The notes below the pieces were generated by a model. It did not search any database. It was not told the DNA's origin and worked only from the letters and a program-made list of their open reading frames with translations. Positions 9,400 to 52,518 of a stretch of 64,000 bases of DNA are shown here, one piece after another. The DNA lies in NCBI GenBank assembly GCA_030295235.1, contig AP026124.1, positions 2,046,001 through 2,110,000 on the forward strand, read 5' to 3'. The first letter of the stretch is position 1. Every line of letters starts with the position of its first letter. Position numbers and translations under genes: made by a program. The stretch comes from Fistulifera solaris. Its lineage: Eukaryota.

Positions 9400-9422
9400 C
9401 CACGACTGCATTTCAGTCATGA
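9400..9422 (+). promoter_or_regulatory. Dyad motif CCAYGACT-N5-TCAGTCAYGA (representative copy)
   Basis: ccacgact-gcatt-tcagtcatga; further copies at 9618, 19175, 19389, 34489 and 52105. Confidence 0.55.
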
Positions 9423-9852
9423 GTCATGAGGTGTCATTTACCGGGCCGGACAGTTACATTGTTACATTACCACCGGTCGTTTTGTTAGTTTGGTAAGCAA
9501 AATTGTCATTATTTATACGATCCATTTACCGTCCGCACCATATACAACTCAAGCCTCATCTTTTTGTCGAGCAAATTGTCACCTTTTCTTCAATACCATA
9601 GTGTAAGCGGCCCTTCTCCGCGACTGCATTCAGTCATGAGCCGTCCTTGTGTCGAGCCGCCGAAAAACGTTGTCTATTAAGGTTAATGACAATCGCAGTT
9701 TCGATGGGCATCGGACGCGATCTTCGTACAGCGGCCTACGAACAGAACGACGATGAGCGCAATAGTGCAATTCATTCTATTATTATTTGTGAGACGATCG
9801 GATTGATCCAGCACCTTACTAATATACTGACGACGACTCGAATACCCCCACA

Positions 9853-33905: not shown

Positions 33906-34248
33906 GGGTAATATTTGAAGGTAGCACCGGCCAGCGAAAGCTGTATTGCTGCGTTCGATAAGCTAATGAAGGTCTAGTTCGGTGCTTTGATTGTGAGGCC
34001 ACTGATAAGCACGAGCGACGACCTAATGGGCATGACTTTCAAGACATGTGAGAAACAGAAACAGAAAGCCAAAAGCAACTTGAACCATTATTTTTTTCCT
34101 TGCGATGATGAACGGTGACAGCGTCGTGTCACATGGAGTAGAACTCTCTACTTTAGAGATCACTGTCATCTCACTCACGTCCAGTTGTGACGGACGCCGG
34201 AGAGGCGGATAAGTGCGATGCCATTGATTAGGGACGAAGATGATTACT

Positions 34249-34329
34249 GGGAACGGCGTTAAAATTCTGCCTCGTCGTAGACGCTACGTAGAATCTTGTA
34301 CTGGGAGGCAGAATTTTAACGTCCTTCCC
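34249..34329. mobile_element. 81-bp hairpin (MITE-like) element, copy 1
   Basis: 25-bp inverted arms at 34249-34273 and 34305-34329 (2 mismatches) around a 31-nt core. Flanked by CTGG at 34247-34250 and 34329-34332. Confidence 0.7.
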
Positions 34330-35076
34330 TGGACTCGATCACACGTAGTAATTTTTAAATAGACTTCCACATATTCCAACAAGACGTACGCTCATAGCTC
34401 CATGAGAAAAGTTCTTAAAGGATCAGATGTAAAATGTAAACGAAGAAAGCTAGACCATCTCATGGAGAGAGTATAAGAGAATTTTGATTCATGACTGAAA
34501 ATCAGTCGTGGTGTCGTCGAATTCACACTTTGGGCTATAGTAATTAGGAACACCTTAATGAGCAATGAATTTCGACATACCACGAAAGGCGATGTGGGTG
34601 AAAATTCATTCCGACAGCGTTATCATTCAAAAAAAACATTGATTTTAAATATTAATGTTATTAATCCTTCGTCAAAGACAGCATTAAATACGTTGCAATT
34701 CCTTTTTGGAATGCCAGCGATCGTTCCCGGGACTGAAAACCAATTGAGTCGGACCCGTCAACCACCAACACCTTATAAGATAGTTAGTACTTGTAGTTAT
34801 TTTTTTCTTGGGAAGAAATCAAAGTAATTTATTCGAATTATTTGAACGACAACATCAACAACACGATCAATGGTACGCCAAAAATAGGATGAACTGATGT
34901 CTCGTTAAACCTTGGTCAAAGACAATGCCAATGAAGATGTTGTTCATCTGCGAGTAATCGGATTTTAGTTTTAGACAAGACTACATTTTAGTGGATAGTA
35001 AACGCCCATCAGGGTTCTTTCGGCAACGGAGAACCATTCAGAGAACCAAATGTTCATCAAATAATATTGTTCCATC

Positions 35077-36706
35077 ATGAAAGATCAAAATGCAGAGAAT
35101 ACATCGTCGTTTGTCCTGTATTCACTCGATCAATTTCAAGTTTCCATATCCGATGAGGTGAAGAGCATTTGACGCGTCCGCTGCAGAATTTGTATGCGAT
35201 CCACGAAGAGGCCGTCGAACATTTTCAACGAATGATGGATGCCATGAAACGACCTCCGTTACAATCGGTTTGTCGTGTGAATTTGATACAGTCTTCTCGA
35301 GACCAAGTTATGGAAGGAATACGAGAAAGTCTTCAAAATGGATCGTATCACGCGGTGGTGATCCAGAACAGATGAAAGTTCGAGTGCGACCACACCCTCA
35401 GCTACACGATACCATTGTTGTAGATGTCATCCCCAAAGACACCAGCGCTACTCTTGGCAAATTAATTATGCCCCCAAATCACACTGATATGACACTCTTT
35501 CCTCATTGGCCGACGCGAGAACAACTGGGTTGGCCCATGTCACATAGAGCCATTTTGTGCGATCGACTGTGTGGAGAAGCCGTGTTGCGAGGATCGGATA
35601 TCTTTGTCCGCGGGATACTGATGGCCGATGCCGGAATTGTGACAGGAGAAGTCGTGGCAGTGTATGCACATCTTGGGGATGTCCGGAAAATTGCGCGTGG
35701 GAGAAAAATGGAGGAATATCGAGGCGAATGTCTATTTTTGGGATTGGGGACGGCCTGTTGTTCTCGTGTCGACATGTTTCGTTTGGAATCGGGACTGGGC
35801 GTTACCATGTCTCCTTTTCCGTGGGATCGGGCCGGACCGAGCATGCCACCCTTGTCGGGGATTTTACCGCATGTCATGATGCCGCAGAATTTGCCTTCCA
35901 TAGTGGTCACGCATGCTCTGCAACCCGAACAAAACGATACAATCCTTGATATGTGTTCCGCACCAGGTGGCAAATCCTTGCACTTGGCGAGCTGGACGAA
36001 AGATCAAGCAACCATTGTGGCCTGCGATAGGAGCCGTAGTAAAATGATTGCGGCTGATGAAACATTTCGACAGGCCGGTGCAACTTGTATAACTCCCCCT
36101 GGCGCTTGACACAACATCGTGCGTCCTCCAACTATCGCAAGATGTTGAAAGAAAAACCGTTCAACAGGTAAGTTAAAATTAGTAGTCGATCGTAGAGAAG
36201 GTGTTATTGTCATCTCTGACTTTTCAGTCCCAATCATTATTCAGATCCTTTCCTCCGCCAAGCCATCGACGAAAGACTCTCTTCTGCATGTGAAAGGATT
36301 TTACCCCGGATCGTTTGATCGAATACTGTTGGATCCCCCGTGTAGTGCACTGAGGTTGCGACCCAAACTAGAGGTTCCCCTTCAAACGGTTCAGGACCTG
36401 GAGTCTTACGCAAAGTATCAGCGACGATTTATCCAACAAGCTGTAGCTTTATTAAAACCTGGAGGAATTATGACGTATAGTACATGCACGTTCCACACTA
36501 TGGAAAATGAAGAAATGGTTGCTTACATTTTAAGCAAATACACGCAGATGAAATTGATGCCGATTGATCTCGATATCGGACTCCCGGGTCTTCCTGGTTT
36601 GGGTTTAAATGAAGTCCAGCGACATAGTGTGAGACGCTTTGATCCATCGGACGCGCAAGATACCATTGGTTTCTTTGTTGCAAAATTTCAGAAAAGAAAA
36701 GACTAA
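35077..36706 (+). CDS. NSUN6-like RNA m5C methyltransferase (PUA + RsmB/NOL1 domain)
   Basis: CGEAVLRGSDIFVRGI, QNLPSIVV.HAL.P, ILDMCSAPGGK, FDRILLDPPCSA, YSTCT...ENE, VRRFDP and DTIGFFVAKF. Intron at about 36168-36245; several frameshifts. Confidence 0.9.
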
Positions 36707-36749
36707 TAACAAAGATTTTATTTTTCAGAAAATAGGCAAGTTACACGTA

Positions 36750-38534
36750 TCACTTCTCCCACCAATTAAATCCACTACTTGCTTGGCCTTGGCCTCCATA
36801 ACCATAGTACGCAGAAGGATCCCAGCTGCTAGTCTCTTCTCCGGGTCGAACTTGTTGTGCCTGCTGTTGATGCCCGTGTTGGTATGAAGCCTGCGCACCA
36901 CCGTAAGGAGGTTGTGCCGCCGGCTGTGCTCCGTAATAACTTTGATTCACTGCGGGAACTGGGGGCGGTGGAAGCGTTACTTGCTGTGGTGGCGGCGGCA
37001 GGTGTCCGGCAGGAGCCATGGATGGCGGTGGCGGCGGGGAAGCTGTTCGAATGGTGGAGGAGGTGGACTAGCAGCAGTATTTCCACCAGCAGTCACTGGG
37101 TTTGTTGTCGGATGCGGCAAGCCGGAAGGAGGCTGTGCAGTCGGCTCGTTCGCTTTCTTCCCATCAAGTTCCGCCATGAAAGACAAATATTCCGAGTCAA
37201 TTTGCTGCTGCTCTTGTGGATTGGATGGATCAACGATAGAGGGTTGGCGAGTACAATCCCTCGTTGGATGGCTTGTGTCCCCGCAGATGGCACACTTCAC
37301 TAAAGGTCGATTGTTGTTCATCGCGAATCGCTTCGGACATTCAAAAGCTCGATGTCCTTTCTCTCCACAAATGTCACAGAACTCATCCTCTTTAAGCGTT
37401 CCGTTGAGTAGAGCAAGTTCGCGAAGCTGTTGCTGTTTGTGAACATTCTTCTCGTCATCAATGACAACCAGCATTTGCTCAATCATATCCGTTGCGGCAT
37501 CGACAGCACGCTGATCATCGCCAGTAATCACAACATGAAGCGGCTCGTTGTCCCCCTCCATCACCTTTCCATCTCGACGTCCTCGCGCTCCCTCCTTGAC
37601 GGACCCTTTTCCACGAATGGCAATTTTGCAGCCCGTTTTCGCTTCCAACTCCTTCTGTGTCTTACCGCGAGGCCCGATAATCAGGCCAATAAAGTTATAG
37701 TTCGGGTGTTTCTCAATGGGAATAGGAACTTTATTAACACGCTTGCGCACCAATAAATGGCTCATCGTTTTTCTGGCTTGAACGTTAGGATTCAAATTCA
37801 TGATCCGCTCTAGAATATCTTGGCGTTCTGCACTATAACGTTCTCTCCATCTTACTGCGCGTGTGTTTTTACGCATACCATCGGGCCCGTAGACTGTAAT
37901 GAGAAAGAAAAAGAAGAGCAAAGCGTTGAGACGATTCTATAGTCTTCAGTGAAAATGAGCGTTATCCAATGAGATACTTACTTGGCGGAGGAGACGGCGA
38001 GCGCTCCCGATGACCCCGCGGTAAGGCGTCCACTCGAGCCGCTTCTCGCTCCAAGCTCTCTAATTTATCATTGATATCGCGCAATTGGGCCTGAAGATGC
38101 CTCATCTGCTCTTGCTTGTCGGGAGGCAAATTCAAGGGCATGTTGACGCCGGGCAGGACAAGTTGAGGAACAATCGGAGCGACAGGTGGCGGAGGCAAAT
38201 TCGTTCCGTTATTATTGTCTCCCCAGCGCGATCTTCGTTTCGAAGGATCATCATCGTTGCTGTTGTTATTGTTGGCGGATCCCCAACGCGATTTGCGTTT
38301 GCGGGGTACTTCAGATCCTTCGGATTGCTGCTGATGCTTCAAATATTCCTTTCTAGCTTCCTTCCAACCACGCCAGTTCAAAACTTCTTTCCATAAACCA
38401 GGGTACTCGCCGTACTTTTCTTTCAGTTCCTTTGCCGCGGATGATTGACCCTCATTGTACCACGTCTTCATCGCGACGTGTTCACGTCGAACCGTGTCGA
38501 CAAATTCGGCTGCGGACTCGCTGTCTTGACCCAT
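36750..38534 (-). CDS. SF1: Splicing factor 1 / branchpoint-bridging protein
   Basis: RKRKSRW ULM, RSPSPPPIYG across intron 37894-37981, KH-QUA2 NFIGLIIGPRGKTQKELE...KIAIRGKGSVKEG...QLRELALLNGTL, two zinc knuckles and a Pro-rich tail. Confidence 0.95.
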
Positions 38535-38773
38535 TTTAAGATTTTCCGCCTATTAGAGGTAGTAAACTTTAACCTCAAATTACAAAGTACCAAGACTGGT
38601 TGCCACACACTATTCGTATTGATATGTTTGTTACGAATTTGATTTTGTTTGCCATCTTCGCATGTTGCGGCGGCTGTCGAATCAATCCGTACAACAAGAC
38701 CGCAAACGAAGCGCAACAACGTAGCGCAACCAATTGCCGACGGTAAACGGATAGACGTTGGTCGTAGAGGCCG

Positions 38774-38932
38774 GGGAAGGACGTTAAGATTCTGCCTCTC
38801 AGTACAAGATTCTACGTAGCGTCTACGACGAGGCAGAATTTTAACGCCGTTACCGGGAAGGTTAAAATTCTGCCTCCCGGTACAATATTCTACGTAGCGT
38901 CTACGAGGAGGCAGAATTTTAACGCCGTTCCC
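38774..38932. mobile_element. 81-bp hairpin element, copies 2 and 3 in tandem (inverted relative to copy 1)
   Basis: 38774-38854 differs from the reverse complement of copy 1 at 3 positions; 38855-38932 is a 78-bp copy. CCGG at 38771, 38853 and 38931. Confidence 0.7.
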
Positions 38933-39107
38933 GGAGGGATGCACGTAGCGGTAGCGGAGTCGTCAAACACACGACCTCGCTTGAGAGTCAAGATGATGCC
39001 AGTCGACTATATTTATTATCTTTCTCTGTTCGTACTGGAACTATTTAAGCCATAACTTAGACTTACAATTAATCGAAAGAACAAGCTTTAATTCAACAAT
39101 CAGCAAG

Positions 39108-42100
39108 CTAACGACGAGGCGCTCCGAAGGGGCTCGATGCTCCGAATGTCGCAGTGGGTTGGGGCGACCCCAACGAGCCAAAGCCTTGACCAGCAGATGA
39201 CTGAGCTAGACTGCCAAAGCCTGAAGCTCCAAACGATGTGGATCCAGCTGCGGCGCCAAAAACAGAACCGGACGGGGTAGTCGACGCAGTGACTGGTGCA
39301 CTCCCGAAGACACTACTCTGACCTAGAGGCGATGCCGATCCGAATCCACTTGAACCGAACGGTGTTGGAGTTGAAGTTACTCCACCAAACACAGTACTTC
39401 CGCCCAACCCACCTGTTCCCAGCGACGAGTGAGAGCCAAAGCCTCCAGGTGCAAGAGCAGGAGCCGAAGTGAGCCCAAATATCGAAGGGTCAAGATTGTA
39501 CTTTTTAGCCAGGTTTCGAAATAGTGCCTCTTCGTTTCCGTGATACTTCTCTAGAAGACGATCGGCTTCGTCCACTTTTGCAGGATTGTGGTTTCGATAA
39601 AACTCAACTAATAATTCGCGAGCGCTCTTGCCGTTGAACATTGGTGCACTTGTCGATTGTGTTTGGATGGCGTTAGCGGAACCGAAGGGTGTATTGCTTG
39701 ATGGAGCTGAAAAAGGAGATTGAGAGGCAGAAAATACAGTATTCCCACCGAATGAAAGTGAAGAAGTTGTTGACAACCCAAAATTCGAAGCCGAAGTGTT
39801 TCCAAAGCCACCGAACACAGGCTTGCTGTCTTGAATTGACGAGCCGGAGAGCCCTGGTGAACCAAATGAGCTCGCGGAAGATGCCACCTTAGTATTCCCA
39901 AACGGTGACTGTGACATTGGTGGTTTCTGCTGAAGCGGCATCTGGGCGTTTGGTGCTTGTTCGGAAGAGAAAAGTGGATTACTCTTAGTAGCTGATTTTG
40001 AGACATCAGTTTGTTTTTCAAGTGGATTTGCAACACCGTATCTCTTTGCTAGCTTGGCAAACATTTCGCCTTCCCTTCCCTGATAACCACAAATATAGGG
40101 TAAGTTGTAAGTCCTTGTTGTGCATAGGTCACGAAAAAGTATTCAAAAACATACCTTGTATTTCGATAAAACAAAAGGCACCTCACTCAATTTCGAAGCA
40201 TTGTGTTCTGTATAAAACTCGGTCAGTAACTTGTGGAAGTCGACTTGATCGTCGGATCCAGATGGCTGAATTTCAAAAAGGGATGACTTCGACCCGGAGT
40301 TTTTGCTGTCTGTAAACAACATCGTACCTAGACCATGCATACTATTAAGCCCAAAGGTTTTTTCTTCCGACGTTTCTGCAGGAGCATCTTTTGGGAGAGA
40401 GAATGAAAGAGGAGGATCGGCATCATTCTTTAGCGTGAATGTGGCCTTGAATGATTCTTTCGGAGAGTCTATGATTTTCGATGGTTTCGAGCCATCTTTC
40501 TTCAACGGTGACTCAGACAGTTTACTCTGTGGGGACTTGGACGCAAGGTCTCCAATGGGTAACTTTGAAGACAACGACTCATTTCTTGCTTCTAATGACC
40601 CTGTACGATTCGAAAGCGCGAAGGAATCTCTTACTCGCTCCGGCGTAGTTCCGAAATCAGATAGCGCTCCACGAGCCGCACTGTCAATAGCAAAGCTCTT
40701 CAACTGAGAAGGTGCGGAATACGTGAGAGCCTGCATTTTGGCCTGGTCGACTGTGGACGGCTCGTCCCATCCTGCTCGGGGATGGAGACTGAGCGGTGGG
40801 GAAAATAGCTGGAGCTGTTTCTGGTGCTGCTTTCCTGTACTCGAAAGACGTGGCTGGCGCTCGTCAACACTTTTCTTACGGACTATTTGGGTTTCGAGCG
40901 ACATTTCAAGTTTGGTTCTTCTTGGCAGCCCAGAAAAGGTACTCAAGTGATTTTCAACGTCCTTCCAGTTCACTTCGTTTCTGTAATTTCCTTTTCCCGC
41001 TTGTATACTGCGATCTTTGGTCGTTCGATGTGACGGCAATCTAATTCTAATATCTTGCCCACAGTCAACTGCATTACGAATCCCGCGCTCGACACGGGTA
41101 GCATCTTCTTCAACTCCTTGTAACTTCTTTCTTGTTTCGTTTATAGACACTAGTAAACGCATATCACCGTCAACGTCCTGTAGTTCGTGCATGAGCTTCG
41201 CTCTTGATTTCAAGGCTATAATTGAACGCTGGAAAGTCATCACGGCAGACGATATCTCTCGTCGCCGCGACTCAGATTCTATATCCAGTGGCTGAACTTT
41301 CAAAAGACTTGCCGAATCAGTTTCTGATGTGAGGAAAGAAGCAAGATATTTCTCGCACTCGTTTGCCCGCATCGAGGCAGTAACCTTGTGACTTAGCATT
41401 TTGATCCCTCTTTGCTTTTGCTGCAAGAGAGAAGATTGAATATCAGAGAATGATACAAGCAATTCGTGATTGTTTTTCGCCAACGTAGAAATTGCGGCCT
41501 TGAGTTCGGAGTCATCGTTTTTCGATTTCATTTGCAAAAGAACTTCCAATCGTTCTTCCATTCTTTTAACAGCAGCGGCATACTGAGCAGCGACCTCGCT
41601 CAACCTATCTTGCATACTCAAAGGCACTCGCCCTGTCCCTAGTTGTGCTTGTGAAAGCGATGCTAATCTTCTTGTTTCGCCGGATGCTGAAAAGTGAGTG
41701 GGGGTCTTGCTAGGCAAAGACGGAAAAGCCGATGACGACGAAGTAGAACCCGTTTTCGTTCCTTCACTTGAAGCAGAAAAGGTGTTGGCGTCTTGCTCGA
41801 CATCGGCGGAAAAGCAGACGAAGAAGTAGCACTTTTAGAATCGGAAGAACCGAAAGCACTAGTGCCAGCAGAAGAAAAAGGCGTTGGGGTCTTACTCGAC
41901 ATTGGCGGAAAGGCCGATGACGACGAAGTAGAACCCGTTTTCGTTCCTTCACTTGAAGCAGAAAAAGGTGTTGGCGTCTTGCTCGACATCGGCGGAAAAG
42001 CAGACGAAGAAGTAGCACTTTTAGGTTCGGAAGAACCGAAAGCACTAGTGCCAGCAGAAGAAAAAGGCGTTGGGGTCTTACTCGACATTGGCGGAAAGGC

Positions 42101-45100
42101 CGATGACGACGAAGTAGAACCCGTTTTCGTTCCTTCACTTGAAGCAGAAAAAGGTGTTGGCGTCTTGCTCGACATCGGCGGAAAAGCAGACGAAGAAGTA
42201 GCACTTTTAGGTTCGGAGGAACCGAAAGCACTAGTGCCAGCAGAAGAAAAAGGCGTTGGGGCCTTACTCGACATTGGCGGAAAGGCCGATGACGACGAAG
42301 TAGAACCCGTTTTCGTTCCTTCACTTGAAGCAGAAAAGGTGTTGGCGTCTTGCTCGACATCGGCGGAAAAGCAGACGAAGAAGTAGCACTTTTAGGTTCG
42401 GAGGAACCGAAAGCACTAGTGCCAGCAGAAGAAAAAGGCGTTGGGGCCTTACTCGACATTGGCGGAAAGGCCGATGACGACGAAGTAGGACCCGTTTTCG
42501 TTCCTTCACTTGAAGCAGAAAAAGGTGTTGGCGTCTTGCTCGACATCGGCGGAAAAGCAGACGAAGAAGTAGCACTTTTAGGTTCGGAAGAACCGAAAGC
42601 ACTAGTGCCAGCAGAAGAAAAAGGCGTTGGGGTCTTACTCGACATTGGCGGAAAGGCCGATGACGACGAAGTAGAACCCGTTTTCGTTCCTTCACTTGAA
42701 GCAGAAAAAGGTGTTGGCGTCTTGCTCGACATCGGCGGAAAAGCAGACGAAGAAGTAGCACTTTTAGGTTCGGAGGAACCGAAAGCACTAGTGCCAGCAG
42801 AAGAAAAAGGCGTTGGGGCCTTACTCGACATTGGCGGAAAGGCCGATGACGACGAAGTAGAACCCGTTTTCGTTCCTTCACTTGAAGCAGAAAAGGTGTT
42901 GGCGTCTTGCTCGACATCGGCGGAAAAGCAGACGAAGAAGTAGCACTTTTAGGTTCGGAGGAACCGAAAGCACTAGTGCCAGCAGAAGAAAAAGGCGTTG
43001 GGGCCTTACTCGACATTGGCGGAAAGGCCGATGACGACGAAGTAGGACCCGTTTTCGTTCCTTCACTTGAAGTAGAAAAAGGTGTTGGCGTCTTGCTCGA
43101 CATCGGCGGAAAAGCAGACGAAGTCGAACTTGAAGCCGTTTCCGTCTCTCTATTTGTTGCAGAGAAAGGCGTCGGCGCCTGGCTCGACATTGGTGAAAAT
43201 GCGGAGGACAGTGATGTTGTTTTTGTTTCTTTGTTGACGGATTCAAGAGCGTGACTCGAGGAAGCATCAGAAGATCCACTCGGTTTAAAGTTGAAGCCAG
43301 ATGAAACTCCAGCTAGGGCGTGGGCGGGCGATGATGAAGCACCGCCGCTTGCAATGGAGAAACCACTCGAACTAATTGCACCTCCACCGAACGAAAAACC
43401 GTTCGCACCAATTGATGAACCAGAGCTTTCTTGAGTCCCACCACCAGTACCCATTGACGCCGTGGTAGCATCATTTTTAGTGCCAGGACGTACAGCCTCG
43501 CATGCTTTGCATTTTCCTGTCTCTCCAGGATTCAACACCATACAAACGCTGCATTTCCAACTACCTTCCTCAGCCTTGAAAATGTTTCCCCAGCCGGTAC
43601 CAGTGGCGACCAACTCATTGGTGACAACGCCGTCAACCTCATCCTCTTCTTCTTCGCTGTCCTCGACATCGCTTTCGTCACCTCCAAACAGCCAGTCAAT
43701 GTACCAGCTGACAAAGGCATTCTCGGTTATTATGCCGCTAGAGTCCTTTAGCTTTCGTATCGTCCTTCTGTGTTCTTCTTCACAATACGTTGTGCCTAGC
43801 GATTCAATCAACTTCGGGAAATCCATTTCCGAGATGCTTCGAACACCGTTTCGTATGCTGCTAAGCTCTTGGAACTTTGCCTGAGCACGCTCGCGCTCTT
43901 CTCGTTGGTCAGATTCTTCAGACCCGCCAGAACTTCCGCCGTCGTCACCTCCACTAAGCAATTGAACGTACCAGTCGATAAAAGCCTGACGCTCTAAATG
44001 GCCCTTGTCATCCTTGTCGACAAGCTTAGTCTGTTTCGCTAACTCATCTCCGTAGAATCCTTCTCCAAGATTTTCAATCAGATCTTCCATCTTATTTAAA
44101 GGTAAAATTCCTTTCTTGTCGCTATCAATCGTGTCAAAGGCCTCGGCAGCTTTCTTGGCCTCCGGTGTGCTCGCACTTTCGTCTCTATCCGATTTTGAAT
44201 CTTGTCTAAGTTCCGCACTATTCACTGCCGGCTCTATGGGTAGAACTTGAGAAGGTGCTTCCATCGTCGCTGAGCTAAGTTCAGGCTGCTCTTCTGGTTT
44301 GATTTCTTCCGTAGTGGTGCCAAATAGTGGCTTTGTTATGCTGGACAAGCCAAAAGCAGAGCTAGCAGGCTTCTTGAAAGTGTTGAATGGATCGGCGGAT
44401 TGCGCGAAACCAGCCGGCGAGCTAGCCAAAGCTCCAAAACTGAACGGCTTACTTGAGAGTACGCTAGAACCGAATACATTTTTCGCGTCGCCTGAACCAA
44501 ACGATAGACTGGCGCTCCCTGACCCAAAAGTTACTTCTGATCCTGACCCGAACGGTGCCGACTGAGGTCCCAATAGAGATGACGTCTGACCGAATACTGG
44601 CTGCGTTGAGGAAGGGACATTTGCACCAAACGCCGACCCGGTGCCAAAAGATAGCGATGAAGTCGATGCAATAGTTGCGCTTATTGTCTGATCAAACGTA
44701 GATCTGCCAAATACGGACTGCTGTGCTCCTGATGCTTCCAACGATGACTTTGGAGGAGTCGAAGCAAGGGAGAGACCGCCAAATCCAAAGGAGGCCTTGG
44801 TTTCCTGGCCAAAAGATTCGCCTTGACGTCCGCAACAGGCAGTGACGCGTCTTCCCTGACTAATTCTGGCGCAGCTTCCGATCGCATGCTTTTTGGAAGA
44901 GGTACTGCTTGGAGTTGATTGAAGCCCGACGCTAAAGGAAGCTGGAAAAAGGATTCATTGGCCCCATGCACCAACTGGAAGCAGGATAGGGACCCATCGG
45001 TCGAAAGGAGCAGCACCAACGGTCGGCAACCCTCTTCTTGTATAACATTTGCAACAGCCAAGCCGGTGGGGTAGGTAAATTCGTAATCTTCGTCGGTCGG

Positions 45101-51632: not shown

Positions 51633-52518
51633 ATACTTTCAATAAAATTGAATACAGGTTTCTTCTGAAAAGCTCCTGTTAGAAGTCGCATCGATTTTTC
51701 ATGGCGATTCTTGGGGGTCGCTTTTAAAAGAAGTCTAGTTTTAGATACGAACGGTCGTAAAAACCGATACCAGAAAGCCATTAAATTGCGCTTACCTGGT
51801 ATGCTCGTAAAATTTCTTTCTGCTTATTCTATAAACTTCAAATCAAGCCCTTATCAAGGCTAAAAAGCAGCGAATGAAATACACGCATCAATTATTTAAG
51901 GCTGAAATGCGGATCGTCCTTTCTCGTAAAGTACTGAATCAAACCATTTCCCGAGTCAAAGTACGAGCACATGCTCACCAACGCCCATCCTTTCTGTTTC
52001 TTTGTCAGCTATGCACGCAACCAAAATTTACAGCGGAAAAAGTTGCGGATCGTTGTCTTACGTAATAATTAATACTGTAGTCGTAGAGTGTAGACGTAAC
52101 GTTACCACGACTTCCGTTCAGTCATGAATTAAAACGTTGCCTAAGCGAAAGCATGCCAACCAATTAGCATCTTTTTTACTCTGACTTTTAAAAAATGAAT
52201 TGACTTTAAGGCCATTAACAATATTTGCAACGCTTATCATGAATTACTTACTCTTACTGGAGGGCTGAAACGTATTCAACGTTCGACTCAAAGTTTACCA
52301 TGACTGGATAATCGCACCGCGTCTCGATCTTTCGTTTCCCGCGCGCCTCGCAGTTTTGTTCGAGCGTTTATGTTCATCGTCCTCTTCCTTCAAGGCATCA
52401 TTGGTCGCAACCCGACGCATTTTCGTCAATGCTCAGATGAATACACAGTCTTTTCAATAAATTGAAATTTAGACGATTCAAGAGCTATAGTTCCTTAGCC
52501 AGCAATTGTGTCGATACA

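What the first reader, a model, noticed from the sequence alone, without database searches (positions are those of the whole stretch)
34247..38934. Undescribed ~80-bp hairpin mobile element with locus-specific CCRG direct repeats
Seen: three near-identical copies (34249-34329, 38774-38854, 38855-38932). Each has ~25-bp inverted arms GGGAA..CGTTAAAATTCTGCCTC / GAGGCAGAATTTTAACG..TTCCC around a conserved 31-nt core with a mini-hairpin (CGTAG-ACG-CTACG). Read in one orientation, copy 1 is flanked CCAG...CCAG, while the tandem pair is punctuated CCGG...CCGG...CCGG. The variable base therefore matches on both sides at each locus, as expected for a target-site duplication or recombination core. Inference: a recently active non-autonomous element (MITE- or REP-like) that targets CCRG and can form head-to-tail arrays. 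No transposase is encoded in the window.
Basis: partly seen in the sequence, partly recalled or inferred. Interest (0 to 1): 0.75.

Follow-up and report, generated by a model that had tools for sequence, protein, structure and literature searches.

The report
Tiny jumping element marking hybrid subgenomes
This is a real 81-base parasitic jumping element, present in hundreds of copies in a hybrid algal genome, whose two variants mark the two parental chromosome sets and which seems to duplicate only one base of its target, a length that the reviews I read do not list for its transposon superfamily.

Summary
The three hairpin copies are real. They belong to an 81-bp MITE with at least 273 copies in the genome. 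The flanks are not CCRG. The target is C-N-G; the terminal G and C behave as part of the element, and only the middle base is repeated (54 of 70 copies). Clean paralogous empty sites show a net gain of 82 bases. The MITE end matches the end of a decayed element on C7 that carries a PF13359 (IS5/Harbinger-like) transposase (20 of 21 nt), and of 2.4-kb and 273-bp derivatives. Two intact relatives have the same C-N|G..C|N-G junctions. Two subfamilies, 8 of 81 bases apart, sort almost perfectly between the paired, 84-89% identical chromosome sets (94 of 100 rows), so they spread separately in two parents before hybridisation. Verdict: new variant of a known kind. The apparent 1-bp duplication is inferred from genome sequence only. 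Earlier scan notes describe the long elements; a sequence look-up found no note on this MITE.

The parts
34249..34329 (-). MITE copy 1, 81 bp, subfamily A, identical to the subfamily consensus. Arms 34249-34273 and 34305-34329; core 34274-34304.
   Evidence: both junctions lie in contigs of run X1 with no substitutions (records 1 and 2)
34247..34248 (+). Left flank C-T of copy 1; T34248 is one copy of the repeated base.
34330..34331 (+). Right flank T-G of copy 1; T34330 is the second copy of the repeated base (target C-T-G on +, C-A-G on -).
34276..34288 (+). Core mini-hairpin (5-bp stem, 3-nt loop). The stem is the same in both subfamily consensuses; 2 of the 8 A/B differences fall in the loop. 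It weakly resembles a subterminal motif of the C7 element.
   Evidence: resemblance: 2 of 300 shuffles with the adjoining arm, 17 of 300 for the core alone
38772..38773 (+). Left flank C-G of the tandem pair.
38774..38854 (+). MITE copy 2, 81 bp, subfamily A, 3 substitutions (element positions 15, 26, 79).
38855..38855 (+). Single G shared between copies 2 and 3.
38856..38932 (+). MITE copy 3, 77 bp: 4 bases lost in the left end, 3 substitutions (positions 28, 35, 56), none shared with copy 2.
38933..38934 (+). Right flank G-G of the tandem pair (target C-G-G).
35270..36706 (+). Context, not part of the element: RsmB/NSUN-type RNA methyltransferase gene with a PUA domain.
   Evidence: intron joint 36164-36242
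36977..38534 (-). Context, not part of the element: splicing factor 1 (SF1/BBP) gene. The tandem pair lies about 240 bp upstream of the first ATG of its 5' ORF.

Best explanation
The element is an 81-bp MITE, moved by cut-and-paste in trans by a small (about 300-aa) IS5/Harbinger-like DDE transposase of a clade that is separate from the canonical Harbingers of the same genome. The transposase, probably with a helper protein of tandem three-helix domains, recognises the roughly 22-bp terminus that the MITE shares with a series of longer elements: C7 (transposase plus helper, decayed), C11, C13 (2,423 bp), C24 and C26 (273 bp). It inserts at C-N-G, weakly within TAC-N-GTA-like sequence, and the filled site reads C-N[G...C]N-G, so one base is repeated. 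Each end recreates a C-N-G, which explains tandem and nested copies. The element was present in the ancestor of two parental species, spread in each as its own subfamily, and the two sets met in the hybrid. Shown: structure, copy number, junction statistics, empty sites, shared ends, subgenome sorting. Inferred: which transposase moved it, the stagger of the cut, the role of the helper, the timing relative to hybridisation.
For: Copy number: 273 matches to an inner 24-mer, control 0; 421 first-look candidates. Youth: subfamily A is 3.3% and B 2.4% from consensus (51 and 23 copies). Junctions, 70 copies with intact subterminal sequence and the terminal bases left free: outer C/G deviates at 39 of 140 positions, terminal G/C at 16 of 140; discordant 34 vs 11, p=0.0008; a non-canonical base is repeated on both sides, as a 3-bp duplication predicts, at only 4 positions, and at 0 among the 28 youngest copies. 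The middle base matches in 54 of 70 (chance 28%). Empty sites with a net gain of 82 bases: L137 (4 paralogues), L212, L145; the long C13 element gains its own length plus one base. Shared end: 20 of 21 nt with the C7 element and 21 of 23 nt with the C13 element, score 38, 0 of 300 shuffles; the other 19 PF13359 stretches score at most 28. The C13 and C11 elements carry a decayed helper ORF 80-87% identical in DNA to that of C7. The C7 ORF is PF13359, E 3.5e-11, 58% identical to the intact C15 transposase. C15 (5,570 bp) and three young 7.1-kb copies have the same junction form. Subgenomes: C1/C2, C23/C24 and C30/C31 are 85-89% and C7/C8 about 84% identical; position 26 sorts 53 T and 2 C on odd against 4 T and 41 C on even contigs C1-C14 (100 listed rows of 273; Fisher p 6e-21); position 74 sorts 53 B and 4 A against 6 B and 32 A (95 of 100 listed rows of 147; p 6e-15).
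Against: No intact transposase with this exact terminus was found. The C7 element is frameshifted, has a MITE inserted just upstream of the transposase ORF and showed only one end. The intact C15 element has unrelated ends (score 14, 288 of 300 shuffles as good). The middle base mismatches more often than mutation explains: 9 of 57 against 2.2 expected, p=0.0003, and 1 of 3 young 7.1-kb copies; a plain 1-bp duplication does not account for this. Three paralogous empty sites fit no duplication as well or better (L127, L138, L207). The fresh sample alone gave no support for 1 bp over 3 bp (14 scorable of 41 copies, 5 vs 5); several of these look like one-base shifts of the end. The likelihood gain of 1 bp over 3 bp is modest (-196.4 vs -199.7; a mixture scores -192.0). 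Many copies were collected with queries that contained the left terminal G. The homoeologous sites of the window's copies lack the element but are too diverged to read at one base; the same holds for L021 and L019. The assembly carries one-base indels against run X1 (6 listed in 6 kb). Pairing was shown for 4 contig pairs only; the rest is inferred from size and order.
Confidence: 0.8

Rival explanations
1. Same transposase clade, but an ordinary 3-nt staggered cut at C-N-G (NuwaI-like, 79-bp element). The excised element carries 5' overhangs from the donor's duplication, as proposed for mPing, and repair often keeps the donor base next to the element and sometimes the donor's middle base. The filled sites would then look like a 1-bp duplication with noise.
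For: Clean empty sites cannot tell 81+1 from 79+3. It explains the excess of mismatched middle bases (9 of 57). Four positions are 3-bp-concordant, for example L147 and L153, and the mixture fit gives 16% 3-bp. mPing excision by staggered cleavage of the duplication with 5' overhangs is proposed in PMC4561436 (abstract and sections 7-8 read). Canonical Harbingers of this genome show 3-bp T-N-A or TAT duplications.
Against: Among the 28 youngest copies, 12 outer deviations come with 0 copied partners, so carry-over of the inner base would have to be nearly complete. In the mPing assay the donor duplication did not steer target choice (45 of 46); carry-over into the junction was not reported in the sections I read. 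L147 and L153 can also be read as one-base losses in the terminal G/C runs.
Confidence: 0.3
2. Variable stagger: the enzyme reads C...G symmetrically and cuts either C-N-G with a 1-nt stagger or C-N-N-G bluntly (Spy-like, no duplication), which would give the mismatched junctions.
For: Mismatched junctions lean to complementary pairs such as CA|TG, CT|AG and CC|GG: 11 of 19 (p=0.024 against one third), 10 of 17 (p=0.048 against base frequencies), 8 of 16. L138 and L207 fit paralogues with no base added. The homoeologue of L019 keeps both bases in one alignment.
Against: The complement bias is marginal and weaker in the last count. L138 and L207 have matched, not mismatched, junctions and lie in short base runs where one-base slips are common. 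No clean empty site of a mismatched copy was found. Repair on the hairpin stem would give the same bias.
Confidence: 0.2
3. One reading: a REP-like (HUH) or recombinase-mobilised element with a 4-bp CCRG core.
For: Strong single-strand hairpin; tandem pairs; the window's own junctions read CCRG.
Against: A left-flank CCR occurs in 18 of 75 copies only. The ends match PF13359-linked elements far above chance. The host is a eukaryote with spliced introns. I did not search the genome for HUH or tyrosine-recombinase genes.
Confidence: 0.04
4. A structured RNA or regulatory motif kept by selection near genes.
For: MITE sequence occurs in contigs of runs X2-X4, which skip introns and so look like RNA. 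The tandem pair lies near the SF1 start.
Against: The homoeologous region lacks all three copies. No Rfam match at E<=1. Copies sit in repeats, satellites and inside each other. The MITE-bearing contigs of X2-X4 run on into other loci.
Confidence: 0.03

Closest known systems
Tourist-like MITEs of PIF/Harbinger (for example mPing; PMC4561436, abstract and sections 7-8 read)
   Same: Short non-coding element with terminal inverted repeats, high copy number, ends shared with a longer element that encodes a PF13359 transposase and a second protein, and a quasi-palindromic 3-base target with a free middle base.
   Different: The target is C-N-G, not TWA. Only the middle base appears repeated. The transposase falls in a separate clade from this genome's canonical Harbingers, and the helper has no Pfam Myb/SANT match.
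NuwaI group of PHIS (Han et al. 2015, PMC4482050; parts 1-3 of 4 of the text and supplementary file 2 read)
   Same: C-N-G target, G-rich termini, PF13359 transposase.
   Different: NuwaI is given as a 3-bp CWG duplication, found in animals, with a Myb/SANT helper. Here the middle base is C or G in 19 of 54 matched copies. By eye, the catalytic motifs (VDG.D ... KYE ... GP ... D ... AD.GY ... RHE) differ from the NuwaI rows of Figure S3 (DGT.I.I ... NRK..HSINVQ).
PHIS lineages with other duplication lengths: Spy (0 bp), ISL2EU and PHISTA (2 bp), Pangu (ANT) (PMC12730594, passages read; PMC4482050)
   Same: IS5-related DDE enzymes whose stagger differs between lineages. The best NCBIfam match of this clade is IS5 family NF033581, in 24 of 67 members.
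   Different: Kojima 2025 lists 0, 2 or 3 bp for Harbinger relatives; 1 bp is not listed. I could not place the clade among these groups, because no reference sequences were at hand.
Progenitor-specific transposon relics used to phase the Xenopus laevis subgenomes (Session et al. 2016, seen only as cited in PMC5935921, passage read)
   Same: Transposon variants that spread in each parent and mark chromosome sets in the hybrid.
   Different: Here both parents amplified sister subfamilies of one 81-bp element. PMC5935921 phased a diatom allopolyploid by GC ratio and codon use and mentions the transposon method without applying it (passages).

Membership tests
MITE | Short, non-coding, with terminal inverted repeats | tested here: met
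   81 bp; 25-nt arms, 23 of 25 complementary
MITE | High copy number and uniform sequence | tested here: met
   273 matches; 2.4-3.3% from subfamily consensus
MITE | Target duplication and empty sites | tested here: met
   Middle base matches in 54 of 70; clean paralogous empty sites for L137, L212, L145
MITE | Ends shared with a transposase-coding element | tested here: met
   20 of 21 nt with the C7 element, 0 of 300 shuffles; that element is decayed
PHIS superfamily (partner elements) | IS5/Harbinger-like DDE transposase | tested here: met
   PF13359 at E 4.7e-12 (C15) and 3.5e-11 (C7); NF033581 in 24 of 67 relatives
Canonical PIF/Harbinger (Tourist-like) | 3-bp TWA duplication | tested here: not met
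   Target is C-N-G
Canonical PIF/Harbinger (Tourist-like) | [quoted passage not shown] | tested here: inconclusive
   No Pfam Myb hit. The model (pLDDT 86, 8 sequences) matches FF, homeodomain and Myb/GARP three-helix folds at Z 5.2-6.7 (rmsd 2.0-6.3 over 54-74 residues), within the range of chance for helical folds; Foldseek gave no hit at E<=0.001
NuwaI | 3-bp CWG duplication | tested here: not met
   Middle base C or G in 19 of 54; outer bases mostly not copied (34 vs 11 discordant). A 3-nt cut with carry-over is not excluded
NuwaI | Transposase falls in the Nuwa clade | tested here: inconclusive
   Motifs differ by eye from Figure S3; no tree with reference sequences could be built
Spy / ISL2EU / Pangu | AAATTT with no duplication / AT / ANT target | tested here: not met
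   Target C-N-G
REP/REPIN (HUH) or tyrosine-recombinase element | Associated HUH or tyrosine recombinase gene | not tested
   No search for these families was run in the genome
REP/REPIN (HUH) or tyrosine-recombinase element | Fixed 4-bp CCRG core | tested here: not met
   18 of 75 left flanks
Current activity | New insertions or excisions | not testable with these tools
   Only contigs of four runs of one study were laid; no joint removes exactly the element

The most novel reading that the evidence does not exclude
The MITE exposes an unnamed, widespread clade of small IS5/Harbinger-like eukaryotic transposases (2,383 representatives at E<=0.001) that cut their C-N-G target with a 1-nt stagger, perhaps switching to a blunt cut at C-N-N-G. 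This would fill the gap between Spy (0 bp) and ISL2EU (2 bp), and would mean that 'CWG 3-bp' calls for such elements are really 1-bp duplications with a terminal G and C.
Probability: 0.5. Interest if true: 0.68.

Novelty: new variant of a known kind. Interest (0 to 1): 0.47.

Why it matters
First, the length of the target duplication reports the geometry of a transposase's cut and is used to define PHIS groups. A lineage with a 1-bp duplication would be a new point on the 0-2-3 bp series, and it can be tested because intact members exist in this genome (C15, and three 7.1-kb copies). Second, an 81-bp element with diagnostic bases gives an independent way to assign chromosomes of this hybrid genome to parents, to spot exchanges (the few misplaced copies) and to date hybridisation against the two bursts. 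As a MITE alone it is ordinary.

Tried and rejected
CCRG 4-bp core: rejected on the flank table. Homoeologous empty sites: four regions compared (two window sites, L021, L019); the element is absent, but the intergenic DNA is too diverged for single-base reading. Second end of the C7 element: not found in C7:113500-132300 at up to 5 mismatches. Intact transposase with the MITE's terminus: none among 20 stretches covering 22 of the 24 PF13359 hits (the two left out were fetched later and belong to the 7.1-kb family), among 18 matches to a pattern for non-MITE ends (five further stretches followed up), or in a DNA search with the C7 element (5 matches). L008 and L031 as a shared ancestral insertion: the flanks do not align. 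Rfam: no match. Solved structures for the transposase profile: none at E<=10. ESM Atlas for the helper: no usable hit. The single-sequence fold of the helper was poor (pLDDT 43). Sequencing runs: no RNA holder listed on record. In the tree I translated row L063 on the wrong strand; that row is to be ignored. In one search the tandem filter left out 5 of 75 copies; two of them (L138, L149) are not tandem, and they would add one to each side of the discordant count. The third sign test is circular and is not used. Literature searches with no hit: Harbinger + '1-bp TSD'; '1-bp target site' + DNA transposon + terminal inverted repeats; Harbinger3_DR + CWG. Searches that listed nothing on this element: diatom + MITE + Harbinger; Fistulifera + subgenome + transposon. 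Repbase entries and subscription papers were not searchable and may already describe the family.
Full report
Observation. The three copies are in the window as described. Copy 1 (34249-34329, read on the minus strand) is 81 bp with 25-nt arms, 23 of 25 complementary. Copy 2 (38774-38854) differs from it at 3 positions. Copy 3 (38856-38932) has lost 4 bases in its left end and differs at 3 other positions; it shares no change with copy 2, so the pair is not a recent duplication of one copy. All four strands folded give hairpins that 0 of 200 shuffles reach. Copy 1 lies between a GTPase-domain gene and an NSUN-type methyltransferase gene; the pair lies about 240 bp upstream of the SF1 gene.

Host. 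The window is C2:2046001-2110000 of a 51.7-Mb, 62-contig genome with spliced introns. Contigs come in pairs of related sequence: C1/C2 89%, C23/C24 89%, C30/C31 85-88%, C7/C8 about 84%. This is a hybrid genome. Earlier notes of this scan call it the diatom Fistulifera solaris; I did not test the species.

Copy number. An inner 24-mer gives 273 matches at up to one mismatch and 0 in the reversed control; a DNA search had 421 first-look candidates. The family has at least 273 copies.

Junctions. CCRG does not hold: 18 of 75 left flanks read CCR. The filled site is C-N[G...C]N-G. This can be read as a 79-bp element with a 3-bp duplication or an 81-bp element with a 1-bp duplication; the readings differ when the target is not C-N-G. 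In 70 copies with intact subterminal sequence and free terminal bases (5 of 75 left out), the outer C or G deviates at 39 of 140 positions and the terminal G or C at 16 of 140. Outer-only cases number 34 and inner-only 11 (p=0.0008); the odd base is copied to the other side at 4 positions. In the 28 youngest copies it is 12 against 2, with 0 copied. An earlier count on 80 of 93 copies (13 left out as tandem, nested or end-shifted) gave 39 against 15 of 160 and log-likelihoods of -196.4 (1 bp), -199.7 (3 bp) and -192.0 (mixture). Against this: a fresh sample of 41 copies, 14 scorable, gave 5 against 5, several of them one-base shifts at the end, and many copies were found with queries that held the left terminal G. 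On the unselected right end the count is 22 outer against 8 terminal deviations. The middle base matches in 54 of 70, but 9 of 57 copies with intact ends mismatch, against 2.2 expected from their divergence (p=0.0003). This excess is unexplained. The wider target preference is weak: C 0.37 at -3, A 0.43 at -4, T 0.34 at -5.

Empty sites. Copies that landed in other repeats give paralogous empty sites. L137 (four paralogues), L212 and L145 show a net gain of 82 bases, and the long C13 element gains its length plus one base. L127, L138 and L207 fit no duplication as well or better, but lie in short base runs, and the assembly has one-base slips against run X1. The homoeologue lacks all three window copies, but its junctions are not clean.

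The mover. PF13359 has 24 hits in the genome. One, on C7 (L103), lies in a decayed element whose end matches the MITE's right arm at 20 of 21 nt (score 38; 0 of 300 shuffles; at most 28 in the other 19 stretches). Its subterminal region holds six tandem repeats of a motif like the inner MITE arm. The same terminus bounds a 2,423-bp element on C13 with 235-bp inverted repeats and a C-T|..|T-G junction, a 273-bp element on C26, and single ends on C11 and C24. C11 and C13 carry decayed copies of the C7 helper ORF. The C7 transposase is frameshifted and I found only one end. Its closest relative in the genome is an intact 5,570-bp element on C15 (58% identity) with a C-A|..|A-G junction but unrelated ends. 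A third family has three copies of about 7.1 kb, 98-99.9% identical, with junctions CC|CG, CT|TG and CA|GG. These transposases form a clade apart from the genome's canonical Harbingers (support 100/99; row L063 was mis-stranded and is to be ignored), which show 3-bp T-N-A or TAT duplications. The clade is large and unnamed: 2,383 representatives at E<=0.001; of ten looked up, the only name was 'hypothetical protein'. Its best NCBIfam match is an IS5 family (24 of 67). The helper folds as tandem three-helix domains (pLDDT 86) with weak matches to FF, homeodomain and Myb/GARP folds (Z 5.2-6.7), which fits a DNA-binding role but does not show it.

Subgenomes. The consensuses of subfamilies A and B differ at 8 of 81 positions, about the divergence between the chromosome sets. 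Position 26 reads T in 53 of 55 rows on odd contigs and C in 41 of 45 on even contigs (C1-C14; 100 listed of 273; p 6e-21). Position 74 agrees: 53 B and 4 A on odd, 6 B and 32 A on even (C1-C24; 95 of 100 listed rows, 5 set apart as long-element or variant ends). Further down the list the parity flips, as C30/C31 shows. The simplest history is one ancestral element, two separate bursts and then hybridisation, with few later jumps or exchanges. The window's copies are subfamily A on C2.

Mechanism. Cut-and-paste in trans by this clade (about 0.85); a true 1-nt stagger (about 0.5) against a 3-nt stagger with donor carry-over (about 0.3) or a variable 0/1 stagger (about 0.2). Genome sequence alone cannot separate these. 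Because each end recreates C-N-G and the core holds a C-A-G, the element is its own target, which explains tandem pairs (window, L089, L090) and nested copies (L010, L190). In L090 the outer bases match (A, A) while the middle base is C, which suggests that a pair can move as one unit (inference).

Comparison with what is known. It works like a Tourist-type MITE. It is not a canonical Harbinger (no TWA). It resembles NuwaI in its C-N-G target but differs in middle-base freedom, in apparent duplication length and, by eye, in transposase motifs (PMC4482050: parts 1-3 of 4 and supplementary file 2 read). Kojima 2025 (PMC12730594, passages) lists 0, 2 or 3 bp for Harbinger relatives. Two searches for a 1-bp duplication found nothing; Repbase and subscription journals were out of reach. 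Phasing by progenitor-specific transposons is known from Xenopus and is mentioned, not applied, in PMC5935921 (passages). Earlier scan notes describe long elements that appear to be the C15 and 7.1-kb ones and file some near NuwaI; a sequence look-up found no note on this MITE, though one note on abundant MITE-like hairpins may concern it.

Verdict. A real, young MITE; new variant of a known kind; interest 0.47. Its value lies in the junction statistics, which point to an unlisted duplication length in the PHIS superfamily, and in its use as a subgenome marker.

Noticed in passing
G000:C2:2044143-2044519 (L082, L083), about 1.5 kb left of the window: Decayed PF13359 transposase remnant in two frames; no MITE-type end found within that 10-kb stretch.
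   Followed up: partly
window 41688-43209: Tandem array with a period of about 186 bp (two sub-units of about 87 and 99 bp) within long open frames.
   Followed up: no
window 9400-9426, 34482-34517, 52099-52134: A second short dispersed repeat; the homoeologue on C1 holds two versions of it near copy 1.
   Followed up: no
window 35160, 35334, 36095, 37035, 33548: One-base indels against runs X1-X4; those at 35334 and 36095 lie in the methyltransferase gene, so its apparent frame breaks are probably sequencing slips.
   Followed up: partly
L135 (C3:592264-592368): A subfamily B copy with perfectly matched arm ends and flanks that are inverted copies of each other, inside a tandem repeat; it looks like a template switch on the hairpin.
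   Followed up: partly
L104 (C15:1303487-1308591): A canonical Harbinger of 4.0 kb appears nested in an outer element that has the C-A|GGG..CCC|A-G junction form.
   Followed up: no
L099 (C29:317100-327000): Inverted duplication spanning at least 9 kb around a Harbinger copy.
   Followed up: no
L186 (C24:1-4049): Satellite array at the contig start, next to a single end of the long element family.
   Followed up: partly
L031 (C1:1016163-1016243); L017, L011 on even contigs: Copies whose diagnostic bases disagree with their contig; candidates for later jumps, conversion or homoeologous exchange.
   Followed up: no
L032, L209, L221, L222; L207, L211, L212: Two minor variants within subfamily B, one with a changed right end and one with changed left and right ends, seen on odd contigs only among the copies held.
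   Followed up: no
L010 (C31:501201-501362) and L054 (C4:1944400): A copy nested in another copy's core with two extra bases at the left junction, and a copy with a 7-base insert at the same core position that may be its footprint.
   Followed up: partly
L007, L029, L038, L050 flanks: Many subfamily A copies sit in short GTACC-type microsatellites that resemble the preferred target.
   Followed up: no
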